Part shown: positions 27,858-33,322 of the stretch, in pieces
Position numbering within the stretch: position 1 is the stretch's first letter
How the letters are laid out: each line of letters begins with the position of its first letter
NCBI GenBank assembly: GCA_965222765.1
Contig: CBDCVG010000043.1
Location: 161,053-225,052 of the forward strand
Reading direction: 5' to 3'
DNA from: Caldora sp.
GTDB taxonomy: Bacteria; Cyanobacteriota; Cyanobacteriia; Cyanobacteriales; Coleofasciculaceae
Length of the DNA: 64,000 bases
The notes under the pieces: generated by a model
What the model was told of the DNA's origin: nothing
Database searches by the model: none
Seen by the model: the letters and a program-made list of their open reading frames with translations, nothing else
Translations under genes and position numbers: made by a program

Positions 27858-27997
27858 TCCATCTTTTTGAAGCACGGGAGCAAGATGCTCCCACTATTAA
27901 AGATTTTTCTTTCCCTCAATCGACACCACTCGACAAATCGCCGAAACCCTATATTTTTCCTTGAGTGGTGTCGATACCTTACAGGGAGAGAGTTTAT
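27858..27997 (+). repeat. Structured ~145-bp repeat R1 (contains the GGGAGCAAGATGCTCCC hairpin and a long imperfect hairpin TCAATCGACACCACTCGAC...GAGTGGTGTCGATA)
   Basis: ~90% identical to 28780..28927 in the same orientation. Confidence 0.8.
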
Positions 27998-28065
27998 CGA
28001 GATTTTCTCTTCAAGTAAACAATTAAAATAAATACAAGTATTTGCTTTGCCTCACAGCCAAAATC

Positions 28066-28299
28066 ATGCAAGTTATCATTCAACCTCCTTCCCTAATTGA
28101 AACCGGAATTAAAGTAGAAACTATCAACGGTTATCCGCTGTTCAAATTTACGAACTCACTTCAATCACGTTTAGAAACTCTTCTGGAAAAAAATCAAATC
28201 AATGCTTTAACTTCAGAAGAACAAGAGGAACTAAATGCCATTAGCGAACTTGATCGCCTCTTTACTTACTTAAACTCCCTGCTAATTGCTCAAAAATGA
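28066..28299 (+). CDS. Small hypothetical protein translationally coupled to the downstream HNH gene (ATGA overlap)
   Basis: 77 aa from the ATG at 28066 (a TTG at 28042 is also possible). Its stop overlaps the HNH start. Confidence 0.45.
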   Translation: MQVIIQPPSLIETGIKVETINGYPLFKFTNSLQSRLETLLEKNQINALTSEEQEELNAISELDRLFTYLNSLLIAQK

Positions 28300-29021: not shown

Positions 29022-30575
29022 ATGGCTAAAGTAAGTTTAGATGCTTTGATTCCAAGAGAAGATTTTGAAGTAGAAGAAAATAGTAGCCCAGGTAAGAAAA
29101 AAGAAACAATTTCTATTGAAGATATTAAGGCGGATTCATTTTTCTTTGTGACTGTTAGAAAACCAGACTTTCAGAGAGAAACAAATGAATGGGACAGCAA
29201 AAAAATATGTGAGCTTATAAAAAGTTTTATTGAAGGTGATTTAATACCTGCGATTATTTTGTGGCGAAGTACAAGTGGTTACTTATTTGTAATAGATGGT
29301 AGTCATAGATTGAGTAGTTTGTCTGCTTGGGTAAATGACGATTATGGAGACGGTGATATTTCAAAAGCTTTTTATGATGGAATGATTCCTGATGAACAAA
29401 AAGAAATTGCTGAGCAAACAAGGAGGATGGTTAATAAAACAGTTGGCTCATATAGTGATTTCAAGTTAGCTCTTACCCACCCTGATAAGGTCAAACCAGA
29501 AGTTGTTAGATACGCTAAAAATTTAGCAGCATTAGCAATTCAGGTTCAATGGGTAGAAGGAGATTCAAGTAAAGCAGAAAACTCATATTTCAAGATTAAT
29601 CAACAACACACACCAATCAATAAAACTGAACTAAAAATTCTTGAATCTAGAAGAAAACCTAATAGCATAGCAGCACGCGCAATTATTAGAAAGGGTAAGG
29701 GACATAAGTATTGGTCGTCTTTTACAAATGAAATACAAAATCAAATACAAGAAATTGCAGAGGAAATAAATCAAATACTTTTTGAACCTAAATTACAAAC
29801 TCCAATAAAAACACTAGATGTACCATTAGCTGGAAAACTTTATTCTAATCAAACTCTATCGCTGATTTTAGATTTTGTAAATATTGTTAACGATATAGAT
29901 TTCAAAAATAATGAACTTAATGATGATACAACAGGAGAGAAAACCATAAAATTCTTAAACAAAACTAGAAAAGTTGCATATTTATTAAATAGTAATCATT
30001 GTTCATCCCTAGGATTACACCCGATCATATATTTTTATTCAAAACAAGGAAGACACAGAACTGTATCATTTTTAGGTGTTGTAGATTTTGTAATAGAGCT
30101 AGAAAAAAGAAAAAAACTCAATGAATTTATTAAAATTAGAAAAAAACTTGAATATATCATAATAGAAAATGATAATTGGATTAAGCAAATTTATGAAAAA
30201 CACAGTAATAACCAAAAAAGTTATAAATACATATCTAAACTTTTTTTGGAAATTACTAATAATTTAAAAATCCACGTAACAACTGAAAAAACAATAAAAG
30301 CAATTGTATCTAATTATGATTTTAGCTATTTAATCATTAACACAACAAATCAAAATATTAGTACATCAAAAAAAGACTTCAATACAAATAATAAAAGCGA
30401 AATTTACATAAAAGATACACTTCCCAATGCACCTCGTTGTAAAATCTGTAACGGGTTTATTCATAAAAACTCAATTTCTATTGATCATAAACAGCGCATA
30501 CAGGATGGTGGATTAGCAACTATAAATAATGGGCAAATTACTCATCCATACTGCAATACTGGTTATAAGAATTAA
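29022..30575 (+). CDS. DUF262 (ParB/Srx-like, DGQHR/DGQQR-type) N-terminal domain fused to a C-terminal HNH nuclease: a GmrSD/DndB-like putative defence nuclease, in very AT-rich DNA
   Basis: The N-terminus reads FQRETNEWDSKKICELIKSFIEGDLIPAIILWRSTSGYLFVIDGSHRLSSL, and later ENSYFKINQQHTPINKTEL. The C-terminus CKICNGFIHKNSISIDHKQRIQDGGLATINNGQITHPYCN fits an HNH motif. Confidence 0.6.
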   Translation: MAKVSLDALIPREDFEVEENSSPGKKKETISIEDIKADSFFFVTVRKPDFQRETNEWDSKKICELIKSFIEGDLIPAIILWRSTSGYLFVIDGSHRLSSLSAWVNDDYGDGDISKAFYDGMIPDEQKEIAEQTRRMVNKTVGSYSDFKLALTHPDKVKPEVVRYAKNLAALAIQVQWVEGDSSKAENSYFKINQQHTPINKTELKILESRRKPNSIAARAIIRKGKGHKYWSSFTNEIQNQIQEIAEEINQILFEPKLQTPIKTLDVPLAGKLYSNQTLSLILDFVNIVNDIDFKNNELNDDTTGEKTIKFLNKTRKVAYLLNSNHCSSLGLHPIIYFYSKQGRHRTVSFLGVVDFVIELEKRKKLNEFIKIRKKLEYIIIENDNWIKQIYEKHSNNQKSYKYISKLFLEITNNLKIHVTTEKTIKAIVSNYDFSYLIINTTNQNISTSKKDFNTNNKSEIYIKDTLPNAPRCKICNGFIHKNSISIDHKQRIQDGGLATINNGQITHPYCNTGYKN

Positions 30576-30679
30576 CTATAGCAATCCTAAATGGTAACAG
30601 TAGGATATATCTGGTCTAACCTGGGCTATCCCTTGATCGCTGGTGTCGATTTCAAATAGGATTGCTATATATTTTAAGA

Positions 30680-33322
30680 TTAGCTGTCCGAAGTATCAAC
30701 TGATGTCATCGGACTAATTAAACCATTAGCAGTACTAAAGAGATTAATCGGATTTTTCCCATCAGTAATCAACACACTCTGAATACCAAGTCCTTCTAAT
30801 AGTCTCGCCTGCATTTCTGGGCCTGCTTGTGCGATCGCTTTTAGGGTTTCTGGACCAATTGCTTCCACTTTCTGTTGGAATTCTACACCAGTAATTTGAG
30901 CTATGCGCTCAGCTTTTTCAATTTCCAGGCTATTGAGTGACTGCTGATGGGTTAATTCTGCCTCTTGCCTTGCTCTTAGTTGAGTTAACTCCGCTTCCTG
31001 ACGAATCCGCGCAGCTTCAGCTTCTTGCTGAGCTAGGGTAACTGCTAATTCTCCTTCAATCTGAGCTGCTTGTGCCTTGGCTCTAGCTTCTGCTGTTGCT
31101 TGTCCGGTAGACTCAATTGCTGCATTTTCTGCTTGCAATTCCAAGAGTTTTTTGCGCTCTACTTCCGCTGCACCTTGATCAACTATTACCTGTCTCTCCA
31201 GTCTGGCTTTAGCTTGTTGCTCAATTCGTTCTGCATCCCTACGTGCAGCCGCTTCTTGAGCATCGGTAGTAATTTGAATTGCTAGCTGGACTGATTTTTG
31301 CAGACTCTTTAAGGTTTCTTCATCTACTGGTTCCACTGACTGGATATCAATGTTGGTAATTACCAGATTATTGGTTCTAAAACGGAATTCGTCCCGAATA
31401 TGACCTTCTGCATCGATGCCAAACACTGCCTGCCGGATAATCCGAGCAGAATTGCGATGAAACTCGTCAAATTTTTCCCCAGCTACAGCACCCCTGACAC
31501 GGGAAGCGATCGCTTTACAAGCATCTCCGACAAAATCTGGTACTTGAAAAAGTCTAGCTGCTGTCTGTTCATCTTGGCGATCGACATCAAAGTACCAGTT
31601 ATAAGACAGCTGTAGTTGCAATCTAGCATGATCTGAGGTTTCGACGGTGAAGATATCCGTCATAAAATCAGGACCTAATAATAAGGCTAACGACTTAATC
31701 ACATTTGGTCGCTTGGGTTTGCTACCTGATAAACTCAGCACAGTAAAGGCTTCATCTGGTTCTAGCATTACCAAATCTGGTCCAAATACAGTTCTTGCCG
31801 TTCTGTTCTTATAATCATGGAGCTGCACTACGGCATTTTGTGGCACATGAAAGACCACAGCTTTAGTTTTATCCCGTTGAGGTAAACGTTTGCTCATCGG
31901 GGATGCTTGCTCGGATTCATTGCCTCCCGCCACAGGATATTGCCCCCTGTCAGAAAACGGGTCAATTTTTTGCTTGAGTAGTTTTTCAACTACAGTGGGC
32001 AGTTCTTTTTCCCAAAGCTCTTCGTAGGGGCTTAACATATAAGCTTGAGGACCACCAACTAACTTAAGTTCTCCTGTTTGAGTGTCCCGAACGTAGATCC
32101 CTTCATTCTTATCCAGGGGAATGGCTTGACGTTTCTCCAGCACTTCTACTTCCACCGGAGGAATATAGTCTCTTGGACCGGCAATCATCCACAAATCTCC
32201 AGGCTGACGAGTAATCTGATTCTCTCCCTCACCTTCACTGAAGGCTTCTTTGGCTTGAAGCAACAATGCTTCTTGTTCCCCCAAAACATACACTTCTTGA
32301 ATACCTCCCTTAAGGGATTCACCAGGGTGTAAGAAAAAGGAAGTTCTTCCCTGGCGTACTTCCTGCATTCCCAGCTGAGGTTTGCCAGACTGATCAATCG
32401 GATCAACAACAATACACCATTGGCGATCGCTCAGGGTCGTAATTTTAACTTCCCCTACCACCTCTTCATAAACATCGGGAATGTGGATTTCTGCATCTTC
32501 AAAGGTGACTAACCATTCATCTCCAGCTTTTCGTTGCCGACTAAAAACATCAGTAAAAGTGCGTTGAGCTTCGAGATATAGTGCTTTTTGCTCGGTCAAA
32601 ACATAAGCATCAATCATGCCAACAACTTCTTCATCTACCCCAGGCAAGTAAGCTCCTTCTTCCCTTACTAGCCACTCTTCCCCTGTTCTGCGTCTTTGTC
32701 CTTGACGATCCGTACAATTTTGTCTTGACCGCAGACGCAAGGCTTGGTTAGTTTTAATAATCTGGGCAGTGATAGTTTCTAAAACTTCAACTTCTACACT
32801 GGGAAGATAAGTTGCTGGTCCTTCAAACAACCATTCATCTCCTGCTAAGCGATCGATGGTTTCCCTTTGAACTTCTCCTTCTACTGTCACCGTTACCGTA
32901 TCAGTGAAATCCCGAATCGCCCTCAGGCGTAGTGCTTGATTGGTTTCAACTACCTGTAGTCTCGTTACCTTTCCGAATAGTTCCTCCCCTGGATAAAGAG
33001 GAAAAGGGTCTTGAGTAAAGCGAATTTCTTGATCGCCGTAACGTAGTCTAATCTGACCATGTTCATCCGCAATAGGTTGATTCGTTTCCTCCCGAAGAAC
33101 TGGATTGGCAACCACACAATAATACCGAGGTGGTACCACAATCATTGGTTGAGGTGTTAAGACAAGTCGCTCATGATCCCGCAAGGTAATAGTTTGGGGA
33201 CCAACCTCCAGCCGGGTAACACCAGTATTATTATCCAGGACATGAATGAACTGTTGGGGTTTAAGGCGAATGACATTACTGGTAGTTCTGGGAACTTCAA
33301 GTTTATTCTCAGTTGTATTCAT
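30680..33322 (-). CDS. Major vault protein (MVP) homologue, full length (880 aa)
   Basis: The N-terminus [59 protein letters not shown] parallels eukaryotic MVP ([38 protein letters not shown]...PPRHYC). It also has tandem vault repeats, a shoulder region, a long cap-helix coiled coil and a C-terminal [25 protein letters not shown] (cap-ring motif). Confidence 0.9.

What the first reader, a model, noticed from the sequence alone, without database searches (positions are those of the whole stretch)
27858..30680. Cassette-like array: structured ~145-bp repeats separate an HNH two-gene module from an AT-rich DUF262-HNH (GmrSD-like) gene
Three copies of one element alternate with two gene units. 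The copies are R1 (27858-27997), R2 (28780-28927, ~90% identical to R1 in the same orientation) and a partial third copy (30631-30653). Each copy carries a short hairpin (GGGAGCAAGATGCTCCC) and a long imperfect hairpin (TCAATCGACACCACTC...GAGTGGTGTCGA). The first gene unit is a 77-aa ORF translationally coupled to an HNH endonuclease. The second is a 517-aa ParB/DUF262-like (IDGSHRLSSL) + HNH fusion, far lower in GC than its neighbours. The layout (gene, structured repeat, gene, structured repeat) resembles integron attC cassettes or MITE-delimited mobile cassettes. The DUF262-HNH architecture is that of type IV restriction / Dnd-associated nucleases.
Basis: partly seen in the sequence, partly recalled or inferred. 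Interest (0 to 1): 0.72.

Follow-up and report, generated by a model that had tools for sequence, protein, structure and literature searches.

The report
Orphan CRISPR leaders flanking nuclease genes
The "structured repeats" are two array-less copies (plus a scrap of a third) of a CRISPR leader that is conserved across filamentous cyanobacteria. They sit in a strain-specific island in front of two unrelated mobile nuclease gene units, so this is a decayed or re-used piece of CRISPR locus, not an integron-like cassette system.

Summary
R1 (27855-27997) and R2 (28778-28927, extending to about 28995) are direct repeats, 87% identical, with strong hairpins, and a core motif recurs at 30640-30652. 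The gene calls also hold: a 77-aa ORF overlaps an HNH gene, and the AT-rich 517-aa protein is GmrSD_N/DUF262 plus HNH.

The interpretation does not hold. The long "hairpin" is the hallmark of a conserved cyanobacterial CRISPR leader. In 46 of 54 evaluable genomes that carry it, a CRISPR array starts 110-139 nt downstream, often beside cas1, cas10 or cas6. A leader profile hits R2 at E 7e-38 and R1 at E 5e-27.

The window has no CRISPR repeats. No cas, integrase or transposase gene turned up among 24 scanned ORFs (10.5-49 kb). The whole 2826-nt block is missing from a relative that is 94-96% identical in the flanks.

Homologues of both gene units elsewhere never have a leader next to them, and DNA homology stops at the ORF edges.

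Most likely this is a variable island where leader fragments and mobile nuclease genes accreted. R2's promoter-like part may drive the DUF262-HNH gene. Interest is modest.

The parts
27855..30680 (.). Strain-specific block between argC (26722-27780, +) and the convergent major-vault-protein-like gene (30680-33322, -)
   Evidence: Symploca sp. SIO2C1 (L124) is 95.7% identical up to window 27854 and 93.8% identical from 30681. In between it has an unrelated 331 nt. An argC terminator-like hairpin at 27834-27847 lies just left of the break.
27855..27997 (+). R1: 5' part of a CRISPR leader (lineage-specific 60 nt, palindrome, small CCTTACAGGGAGAG hairpin). The promoter and third motif are missing or unrecognisable.
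   Evidence: The leader profile matches 27904-27995, E 5.2e-27, model positions 56-147. The core is 92% identical to the leader of a Symploca sp. SIO2E6 array. Fold z -7.8.
27876..27892 (+). Short hairpin GGGAGCA-AGA-TGCTCCC in R1. Its R2 counterpart is 28799-28815 with a G-T pair.
   Evidence: On the minus strand the R2 copy is flagged as terminator-like. It is not part of the region conserved across genera.
27919..27975 (.). 57-nt palindromic leader element of R1 (arms ATCGACACCACTCGA / TTGAGTGGTGTCGAT, 27-nt loop of subtype A)
   Evidence: About 60 cyanobacterial loci carry the same arms at a 56-58 nt span, most at exactly 57 nt. Hits outside cyanobacteria have scattered spans.
28066..28299 (+). 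ORF77, the conserved small partner of the HNH gene (no family match)
   Evidence: A 4-nt ATGA overlap with the HNH gene. A 77-78 aa ORF overlaps the HNH homologue in all four other contexts. No Pfam, NCBIfam or PADLOC hit.
28296..28757 (+). HNH endonuclease gene. The ORF ends at 28700 through a TGA that replaces a conserved Trp; the ancestral frame runs to 28757.
   Evidence: Pfam HNH E 4.6e-16. Homologues are 150-152 aa and align across the stop. DNA homology to other genomes covers only 28060-28749.
28778..28995 (+). R2: CRISPR leader through the promoter-like region and third motif. It is truncated about 45 nt before the point where the first repeat should start.
   Evidence: The leader profile matches 28827-28993, E 6.6e-38, model positions 53-212. 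Alignment with leaders of arrays. Palindrome at 28845-28901 with one arm mutated (GATTGG). -10-like TAGTAT at 28965-28970.
28979..28991 (+). Third copy of the leader motif in R2 (GTGGTGCCGATTT, a T>C change from the consensus)
   Evidence: 51 of 58 leaders have GTGGTGTCGATT at a fixed offset (69-71 or 78-80 nt) after the palindrome. Window match.
28999..30580 (+). AT-rich mobile gene unit encoding the 517-aa GmrSD_N(DUF262)+HNH nuclease (ORF 29022-30575)
   Evidence: PF03235 E 1.1e-14. HNH E 2.7e-5. 4355 relatives; the best 120 listed are 66-86% identical apart from one exact match, and include non-cyanobacterial sources. DNA homology to L121 and 28 metagenome loci spans only 28999/29022-30575/30580. 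GC 22-36%.
30577..30669 (.). Tail stem-loop (13-nt perfect arms 30577-89 / 30657-69) between the convergent genes. It contains the isolated core motif CTGGTGTCGATTT (R3, 30640-30652).
   Evidence: Sequence. Fold -29.7 kcal/mol. Motif statistics.

Best explanation
R is a CRISPR leader, not a cassette recombination site.

Shown. The 57-nt palindrome, the small hairpin after it, a -10-like hexamer and a third copy of the motif GTGGTGTCGATTT together form a leader that is conserved across filamentous cyanobacteria (Nostocales, Coleofasciculaceae, Symploca/Caldora). In those genomes it sits 110-139 nt upstream of the first repeat of type I/III-style arrays. The window holds two tandem paralogous fragments of such a leader and a 13-nt scrap of a third. 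It has no repeats or spacers, and no cas gene was found among the ORFs scanned in 10.5-49 kb. The fragments lie inside a 2.8-kb strain-specific block at a hypervariable spot downstream of argC.

Inferred. The block is an accretion or decay product. Leader-containing DNA landed or was duplicated here and the arrays were lost. Two independently mobile, ORF-sized nuclease units now occupy the array positions: ORF77+HNH, and the AT-rich DUF262-HNH type-IV-restriction-like gene.

Inferred. R2's retained promoter-like segment ends 30 nt before the DUF262-HNH start codon, so it is the most likely source of that gene's transcription.

Inferred. The palindrome lies upstream of the -10, and its arms vary without compensation. 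It therefore probably acts as a set of DNA protein-binding sites (adaptation complex or regulator) rather than as an RNA structure. Here those sites are probably relics: conserved positions are mutated in R2, R1 lacks the promoter, and the HNH gene carries a nonsense codon.
For: A genome-collection scan for the palindrome arms returned about 60 cyanobacterial loci with a span of 56-58 nt, most at exactly 57.

46 of 54 evaluable loci have a CRISPR array whose first recurring repeat lies 110-139 nt after the palindrome. Three more have 1-2 repeats.

The leaders align from the palindrome to the first repeat. They include a TATAAT-like hexamer, and the third motif is present at a fixed offset in 51 of 58.

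Neighbours of the leaders include Cas1, Cas10 and Cas6, and an annotated type III operon on Allocoleopsis plasmid pMIC7113.03.

The nhmmer leader profile hits R2 at E 6.6e-38 and R1 at E 5.2e-27, and nothing else in the window.

The window has no CRISPR array or repeat remnant and no Rfam family in the block.

The block is absent from a relative 94-96% identical in the flanks. Other relatives carry different genes at this site.

Gene-unit homologues elsewhere lack leaders: 0 of 29 loci for the 517-aa gene and 0 of 4 distinct contexts for ORF77-HNH. DNA homology ends at the ORF edges.

Stem position 11 is unpaired (C/C or G/G) in 31 of 55 loci, so pairing is not maintained there.

Signs of decay: the R2 arm G>T and third-motif T>C changes, the R1 truncation and the HNH nonsense codon.

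Truncated array-less leaders also exist elsewhere, in L021, L025, L065, L067 and L075.
Against: R's 5' edge coincides with the block edge, and a motif copy sits at the other edge. That hints at an ordered process rather than random accretion.

Both gene units are co-oriented with the leaders and sit exactly where arrays would be. The 517-aa ORF is intact, R1's palindrome is perfect, and R2 keeps a -10-like hexamer. Active use cannot be excluded.

The promoter is inferred from alignment only. The generic promoter scan was uninformative.

Leader diversity and copy number per genome are therefore under-sampled.

The rest of the source genome (a 228-kb contig) could not be retrieved. Whether it has arrays or cas genes with this leader is unknown.

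The polarity of the difference from the relative (insertion here or replacement there) is not established.
Confidence: 0.75

Rival explanations
1. Functional co-option. The leader copies are kept as portable promoter and operator modules. The two nuclease units would then be transcribed and regulated together with the genome's CRISPR arrays by whatever binds GTGGTGTCGAT.
For: R2 keeps the -10-like hexamer and the third motif, and the DUF262-HNH start codon lies 30 nt after it. Both gene units are co-oriented with the leaders. The 517-aa ORF is intact and the R1 palindrome is perfect.
Against: No recurrence: none of 29 loci with the 517-aa gene and none of 4 ORF77-HNH contexts has a leader. R2 is mutated at two near-invariant positions and R1 lacks the promoter part. 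The HNH gene has a nonsense codon. No cas gene was found among the ORFs scanned in 10.5-49 kb.
Confidence: 0.17
2. Integron-like or MITE-delimited cassette array. R is a recombination site or miniature transposon that delimits mobile gene cassettes.
For: The layout alternates repeat and gene. R's 5' edge coincides with the block edge, and a core motif sits at the far edge. DNA homology of both gene units to relatives is limited to the ORFs, as expected for cassettes.
Against: R is homologous to CRISPR leaders at fixed register with arrays. No integrase or transposase was found among the ORFs scanned in 10.5-49 kb. The ends TATTCCATC... and ...GAGAGTTTAT are not inverted repeats (read). There is no other copy in 64 kb. 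Other genomes in the (row-capped) scan contributed only one or two hits each, nearly all at arrays. No R lies next to the same genes elsewhere.
Confidence: 0.03
3. Leader-targeted selfish insertion. The HNH-type nuclease genes home into, or were inserted at, CRISPR leaders, knocking out the arrays (an anti-CRISPR-like or homing scenario).
For: Both inserted units encode HNH nucleases. The DUF262-HNH unit starts 4 nt after the leader's third motif plus ATCG. A related motif follows the unit. Arrays elsewhere are interrupted by mobile elements, for example a Tn7-like element after repeat 4 in L160.
Against: Homologues elsewhere are never beside leaders or arrays. No array remnant lies downstream. 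No relatives were found in the viral contig collection. R2 gave no match in the phage collection.
Confidence: 0.04
4. R encodes a structured regulatory RNA (5' UTR element or small RNA) for the downstream nuclease genes.
For: Predicted folds are strong, and R lies directly upstream of both gene units.
Against: No Rfam match even at E 1. In homologous leaders the palindrome lies upstream of the conserved -10-like hexamer, so it is probably not transcribed. The arms vary without compensation. R is absent upstream of homologous genes elsewhere.
Confidence: 0.02

Closest known systems
CRISPR leaders of cyanobacterial type I-D / type III arrays (conserved leader motifs; Kieper, Almendros & Brouns 2019, PMC6607411)
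   Same: About 200-nt leaders are strongly conserved, mostly at the repeat-distal end, and carry motifs that raise spacer acquisition. R1 and R2 align to such leaders. The Synechocystis I-D leader shares short strings with the loops of this family (GCCAAAT, GAACCTTGAAAA).
   Different: There are no repeats, spacers or nearby cas genes here. The leaders are truncated at the repeat-proximal side and followed by protein genes. The Synechocystis leader lacks the ATCGACACCAC/GTGGTGTCGAT arms and is not hit by the profile, so R's family is at most a sister of the one studied experimentally.
Orphan or degenerate CRISPR components (orphan arrays, isolated cas genes; e.g. PMC5294841, seen only in the search list and not read)
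   Same: A CRISPR locus part stands alone in the genome. Array-less or mini-array leaders also occur in other genomes sampled here.
   Different: What is usually described is arrays without cas genes. Here the leader survives without an array, in tandem copies.
Integron attC gene cassettes
   Same: Structured imperfect palindromes alternate with promoterless-looking genes in one orientation.
   Different: There is no IntI and no attC core sites. The repeats are near-identical to each other and homologous to CRISPR leaders, and they sit 5' rather than 3' of the genes.
GmrSD / BrxU / SspE-type DUF262 nucleases (type IV restriction)
   Same: An N-terminal GmrSD_N/DUF262 domain (E 1.1e-14) is followed by a C-terminal His-Me-finger nuclease. 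Sources name relatives 'GmrSD restriction endonuclease domain-containing protein'.
   Different: The C-terminal nuclease matches PF01844 HNH, and no DUF1524 hit was seen. The motif is DGSHR rather than DGQHR. Activity is untested. No solved structure is detectable by sequence.
Small stand-alone HNH endonucleases with an upstream partner ORF (PtuB-like / retron-type HNH by HMM)
   Same: An HNH domain with CxxC...DHIxP...N...CN motifs. Weak PADLOC PtuB and TIGR02646 matches over the HNH core.
   Different: All scores are far below family cut-offs. There is no PtuA ATPase or reverse transcriptase. The partner is a 77-aa protein with no family.

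Membership tests
CRISPR leader (cyanobacterial palindrome-bearing family) | Sequence homology to DNA lying directly upstream of CRISPR arrays | tested here: met
   The profile was built from 35 subtype-A leaders. R2 scores E 6.6e-38 and R1 E 5.2e-27. 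46 of 54 source loci have arrays in register.
CRISPR leader (cyanobacterial palindrome-bearing family) | CRISPR repeat-spacer array immediately downstream | tested here: not met
   There is no array-like tandem repeat (period about 70 nt) in 64 kb. Repeat consensus searches gave only chance 8-12-mers. The R2 alignment breaks about 45 nt before the first-repeat position.
CRISPR leader (cyanobacterial palindrome-bearing family) | cas genes (cas1/cas2 or effector genes) in the neighbourhood | tested here: not met
   Pfam scans of 24 ORFs between 10.5 and 49 kb found none. ORFs outside that span were not scanned.
CRISPR leader (cyanobacterial palindrome-bearing family) | Promoter plus third GTGGTGTCGATTT motif at fixed offset | tested here: inconclusive
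   R2 has TAGTAT and GTGGTGCCGATTT at the expected offset once its 6-nt insertion is allowed for. R1 has neither. Promoter activity is untested.
CRISPR leader (cyanobacterial palindrome-bearing family) | Supports polarised spacer integration and pre-crRNA transcription | not testable with these tools
   This needs acquisition assays and transcript mapping.
Integron cassette array (attC) | IntI-type tyrosine recombinase with attI nearby | tested here: not met
   No recombinase was found among the ORFs scanned.
Integron cassette array (attC) | attC sites 3' of each cassette, with variable sequence and RYYYAAC/GTTRRRY core sites | tested here: not met
   The R copies are 87% identical to each other and lie 5' of the genes. 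Their arms are ATCGACACCAC/GTGGTGTCGAT, and the ends as read show no such core sites; no pattern search was run for them.
MITE | Terminal inverted repeats, target-site duplication, many dispersed copies | tested here: not met
   The ends TATTCCATC... and ...GAGAGTTTAT are not complementary (read). R occurs only in this block within 64 kb. In other genomes nearly all copies lie at arrays, with one or two hits per genome in the row-capped scan.
GmrSD-type (DUF262) type IV restriction nuclease, for the 517-aa protein | N-terminal DUF262/GmrSD_N domain | tested here: met
   PF03235 at E 1.1e-14, 55.4 bits against a cut-off of 33.2, residues 45-204. The full-length scan missed it.
GmrSD-type (DUF262) type IV restriction nuclease, for the 517-aa protein | C-terminal DUF1524 His-Me nuclease domain | tested here: not met
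   The C-terminus matches PF01844 HNH (E 2.7e-5), and no DUF1524 hit was seen.
GmrSD-type (DUF262) type IV restriction nuclease, for the 517-aa protein | Cleavage dependent on modified DNA | not testable with these tools
   This needs biochemical or phage-challenge assays.
HNH endonuclease (134-aa product) | HNH beta-beta-alpha metal-finger domain | tested here: met
   PF01844 at E 4.6e-16, residues 19-65. The conserved 17-aa C-terminal tail is lost to a nonsense codon.

The most novel reading that the evidence does not exclude
CRISPR leaders of this family may act as portable landing-and-expression pads. Recombination at or among leader copies, possibly at the repeated GTGGTGTCGAT(TT) motif, would recruit stand-alone defence nucleases into the array position. 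They would then be transcribed from the leader promoter and co-regulated with CRISPR immunity. The result would be a leader-delimited defence-gene array, a new way of wiring innate nucleases to the adaptive system.
Probability: 0.1. Interest if true: 0.7.

Novelty: new member of a known kind. Interest (0 to 1): 0.35.

Why it matters
The result re-assigns an attractive "new cassette system" to a known class, the CRISPR leader. It also documents the anatomy of a leader conserved across many filamentous cyanobacteria: a 57-nt palindrome plus a third copy of the same motif placed just after the -10, all at fixed spacing from the first repeat.

That triple motif is a concrete target for finding the protein that reads these leaders, whether the adaptation complex or a regulator.

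The window itself shows that leaders can outlive their arrays and end up in front of mobile nuclease genes in a variable island. If such leaders are still active, that would be a simple route for coupling innate nucleases to CRISPR regulation. If not, the locus is an ordinary fossil.

Tried and rejected
Rfam found nothing in the block, at gathering thresholds on the whole window or at E<=1 on the block. The only window hit was a TPP riboswitch elsewhere.

tblastn of the five window proteins against the roughly 60 leader loci gave no hits. Clustering ORFs around the leaders yielded mostly spurious ORFs over the conserved DNA or over arrays.

The generic sigma-70 scan found fewer sites than shuffles and was uninformative.

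Searches of the window for CRISPR repeat remnants with four repeat consensi gave only chance 8-12-mers.

An exact metagenome scan for R's lineage-specific 5' part found 0 matches. R2 gave no match in the phage collection, and neither nuclease gave a usable hit in the viral contig collection.

Exact look-up of the source contig failed for the window's ArgC and the 517-aa protein.

A PDB sequence search with the 517-aa protein found nothing.

Paper searches for the motif string and for orphan leaders found nothing relevant. The supplement of PMC6607411 is not held. The leader profile does not hit the Synechocystis pSYSA I-D leader.

Rejected: integron or MITE, retron or IscB-type RNA (no reverse transcriptase, and only HNH-core similarity far below cut-offs), and homing into leaders.

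Full report
**1. Observation**

The region reads as described. Between argC (26722-27780, +) and a convergent 880-aa major-vault-protein-like gene (30680-33322, -) lie R1, ORF77 overlapping an HNH gene, R2, a 517-aa ORF and a short tail.

R1 and R2 are direct repeats. The ungapped blocks are 83 nt at 95%, 45 nt at 89% and 18 nt at 94% identity. With indels, 130 of 150 columns match. A 34-nt core occurs twice where none is expected.

Both copies fold much better than shuffled controls, at z -7.8 and -4.8. The 10-mer TGGTGTCGAT occurs five times in the window where 0.07 is expected, always inside this block. That count includes the partial third copy at 30640-30652.

The HNH assignment is solid (Pfam E 4.6e-16). 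The 517-aa protein has a C-terminal HNH (E 2.7e-5). When its N-terminal 250 aa are scanned alone, they give a clear GmrSD_N/DUF262 hit (E 1.1e-14). GC falls to 22-36% across that gene.

**2. What R is**

I scanned one genome per species (GTDB set) for the two palindrome arms separated by 22-52 nt. Non-cyanobacterial hits had scattered spans. About 60 hits had a span of 56-58 nt, most exactly 57 as in the window. They came from Nostoc, Anabaena, Calothrix, Scytonema, Brasilonema, Fischerella, Stigonema, Coleofasciculus, Symploca, Caldora and others. Two loop subtypes exist, and the window has subtype A.

Once oriented and aligned, conservation extends well beyond the palindrome. It covers a small GCTTACnGGGTAAG hairpin, a G/T-rich stretch, a TATAAT-like hexamer and, about 8 nt later, a third copy of the motif (AGAGTGGTGTCGATTTGG). 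About 45 nt further on the first CRISPR repeat begins.

- In 46 of 54 evaluable loci a repeat-spacer array begins 110-139 nt after the palindrome. Three more have 1-2 repeats.
- The third motif is present at a fixed offset in 51 of 58 loci.
- Genes next to these leaders include Cas1, Cas10 and Cas6. On Allocoleopsis plasmid pMIC7113.03 the neighbour is an annotated type III operon.
- Repeats end in GGAAAC on the strand that reads away from the palindrome, so the element is at the leader end.

R is therefore a CRISPR leader. A profile built from 35 subtype-A leaders hits R2 at 28827-28993 (E 6.6e-38), through the promoter-like part and third motif. It hits R1 at 27904-27995 (E 5.2e-27), covering only the palindrome and small hairpin. 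It hits nothing else in the window.

Functional-looking leader-array pairs exist in the same lineage: Symploca sp. SIO2E6 (L032, L092) and Caldora sp. SIO3E6 (L100). R1's core is 92% identical to L032.

**3. What is missing**

- The window has no CRISPR array and no repeat remnant.
- There is no Rfam family in the block.
- No cas, integrase or transposase gene was found among 24 ORFs scanned between 10.5 and 49 kb.
- R2 departs from the leader alignment right after GTGGTGCCGATTTATCG, where AT-rich DNA begins.
- R2 carries changes at two near-invariant positions: arm GATTGG, and third motif T>C.
- R1 lacks the promoter segment.

**4. Context**

Exact-protein look-ups place the window in a Symploca/Caldora-like cyanobacterium.

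In Symploca sp. SIO2C1, argC and the vault-protein gene are adjacent. The flanks are 95.7% and 93.8% identical up to window 27854 and from 30681. Between them lies an unrelated 331 nt containing what look like small palindromic elements. The whole finding (27855-30680) is thus one strain-specific block.

Other relatives have still other genes at these positions: TA modules, and NACHT- or STAND-type (NPHP3_N/AAA_16 domain) genes. The spot is hypervariable.

**5. The gene units are independent travellers**

The ORF77+HNH pair recurs with the same 4-nt overlap in four other contexts. The 517-aa gene has thousands of relatives. The best 120 listed are 66-86% identical apart from one exact match, and include non-cyanobacterial sources.

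DNA homology to these covers only 28060-28749 and 28999-30580, that is, the ORFs plus a few bases. None of 29 loci with the 517-aa gene and none of the ORF77-HNH contexts contains a leader match or the motif. No viral relatives were found.

The window's HNH has TGA in place of a conserved Trp and loses 17 conserved residues.

**6. Mechanism**

Shown: R is leader-derived, there are no arrays or nearby cas genes, the block is strain-specific, and the gene units are not linked to leaders elsewhere.

Inferred:
- The block is an accretion or decay product in a variable island.
- R2's promoter-like part probably provides transcription for the DUF262-HNH gene. The -10-like TAGTAT is at 28965-28970, the start codon at 29022.
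- The palindrome is a DNA-level protein-binding element rather than an RNA fold. It lies upstream of the conserved -10, its two arms vary independently (position 11 is unpaired in 31 of 55 loci), and a third same-sense copy follows the -10.
- Published work on cyanobacterial type I-D leaders shows that repeat-distal conserved motifs raise spacer acquisition (PMC6607411). The Synechocystis leader shares only short strings with this family and is not hit by the profile. The kinship is plausible but not established.

**7. Unexplained**

The 5' edge of the R1/R2 similarity coincides, within a base or two, with the edge of the block relative to SIO2C1. An isolated core motif lies 28 nt from the other edge, inside a 13-nt perfect inverted repeat.

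This fits assembly by recombination among leader copies. It is the main reason to keep a small probability on an ordered, leader-mediated recruitment process. Five other sampled genomes carry truncated, array-less leaders, but none has a co-oriented gene in the array position.

**8. Verdict**

The finding is real. Its nature is a pair of orphan CRISPR leader fragments interleaved with two mobile nuclease gene units, not an attC- or MITE-type cassette system. It is a new instance of known kinds of element in an unusual arrangement. Interest is modest unless the leaders prove to be active.

Noticed in passing
window 28698-28700: The HNH gene has TGA where all close homologues have a conserved Trp (TGG). 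The frame continues for 18 more codons that still match the homologues' C-termini. This is a recent pseudogenisation, a tolerated truncation, or an assembly error.
   Followed up: yes
window 30680-33322 (-): An 880-aa protein has full major-vault-protein architecture (Vault repeats plus shoulder domain; Pfam E 3e-65 and 1.5e-54). NCBI names its relatives 'colicin uptake protein'. It is a bacterial MVP homologue conserved in Symploca relatives.
   Followed up: partly
window 58844-58939 (+): A TPP riboswitch (Rfam RF00059, 66.4 bits) lies directly upstream of the ORF at 58947-60317.
   Followed up: no
window 33502-34342 (-): Two short ORFs match only a NACHT N-terminal helical domain (NNH1) and an LRR. 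They look like fragments of a broken NACHT-LRR gene. Relatives L125 and L126 have similarly short NACHT and LRR ORFs.
   Followed up: partly
L160 (Allocoleopsis franciscana PCC 7113 plasmid pMIC7113.03, NC_019740.1) about 7000-12500: A leader of this family is followed by only four repeats. Three genes annotated as a TnsA-N-terminal-domain protein, an ATP-binding protein and a TniQ family protein then begin a few hundred nt after the last repeat, next to a type III cas operon. It looks as if a Tn7-like transposon has cut the array short.
   Followed up: partly
L021, L025, L075 (three Nostoc genomes): The same truncated subtype-B leader without any array sits at an orthologous site, upstream of a convergent ~130-146-aa ORF (family not checked). 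L075 keeps the third motif and L025 has lost it. This looks like stages in the decay of a leader.
   Followed up: partly
L168 (Synechocystis pSYSA, NC_005230.1) 22328-24058: A gene annotated as a DUF262 domain-containing protein lies a few kb downstream of the type I-D cas operon (cas2 ends at 16097), beyond where the CRISPR1 array begins. This is another DUF262 nuclease next to a cyanobacterial CRISPR locus, possibly just defence-island clustering.
   Followed up: no
L124 9134-9464 (Symploca sp. SIO2C1): The 331-nt sequence that replaces the block in the relative appears, read by eye, to contain two palindromic MITE-like elements (AGGACTTACGCA...TGTGTAAGTCCTA, and GGGGCGAAGCC...GCTTCGCCC).
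   Followed up: no
window 6731-6762, 12893-12924, 20759-20790, 38294-38325, 41533-41577, 54858-54924 and others: There are many short heptamer tandem repeats (GAATTAA, ATTCTTA, AGGTTTT, TCCCAAT and others) in intergenic DNA. They resemble cyanobacterial short tandemly repeated repetitive (STRR) sequences.
   Followed up: no
window 41769-43407 (-): Two adjacent PLD-like (PLDc_2) genes; the downstream one is fused to helix-hairpin-helix DNA-binding motifs. They may be a nuclease pair.
   Followed up: no
L122 6542-7329: In a TARA metagenome contig the ORF77-HNH pair is followed directly by a second, different small-ORF (129 aa) plus HNH (133 aa) pair. Such two-gene HNH modules can therefore stack in tandem without any leader between them.
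   Followed up: no
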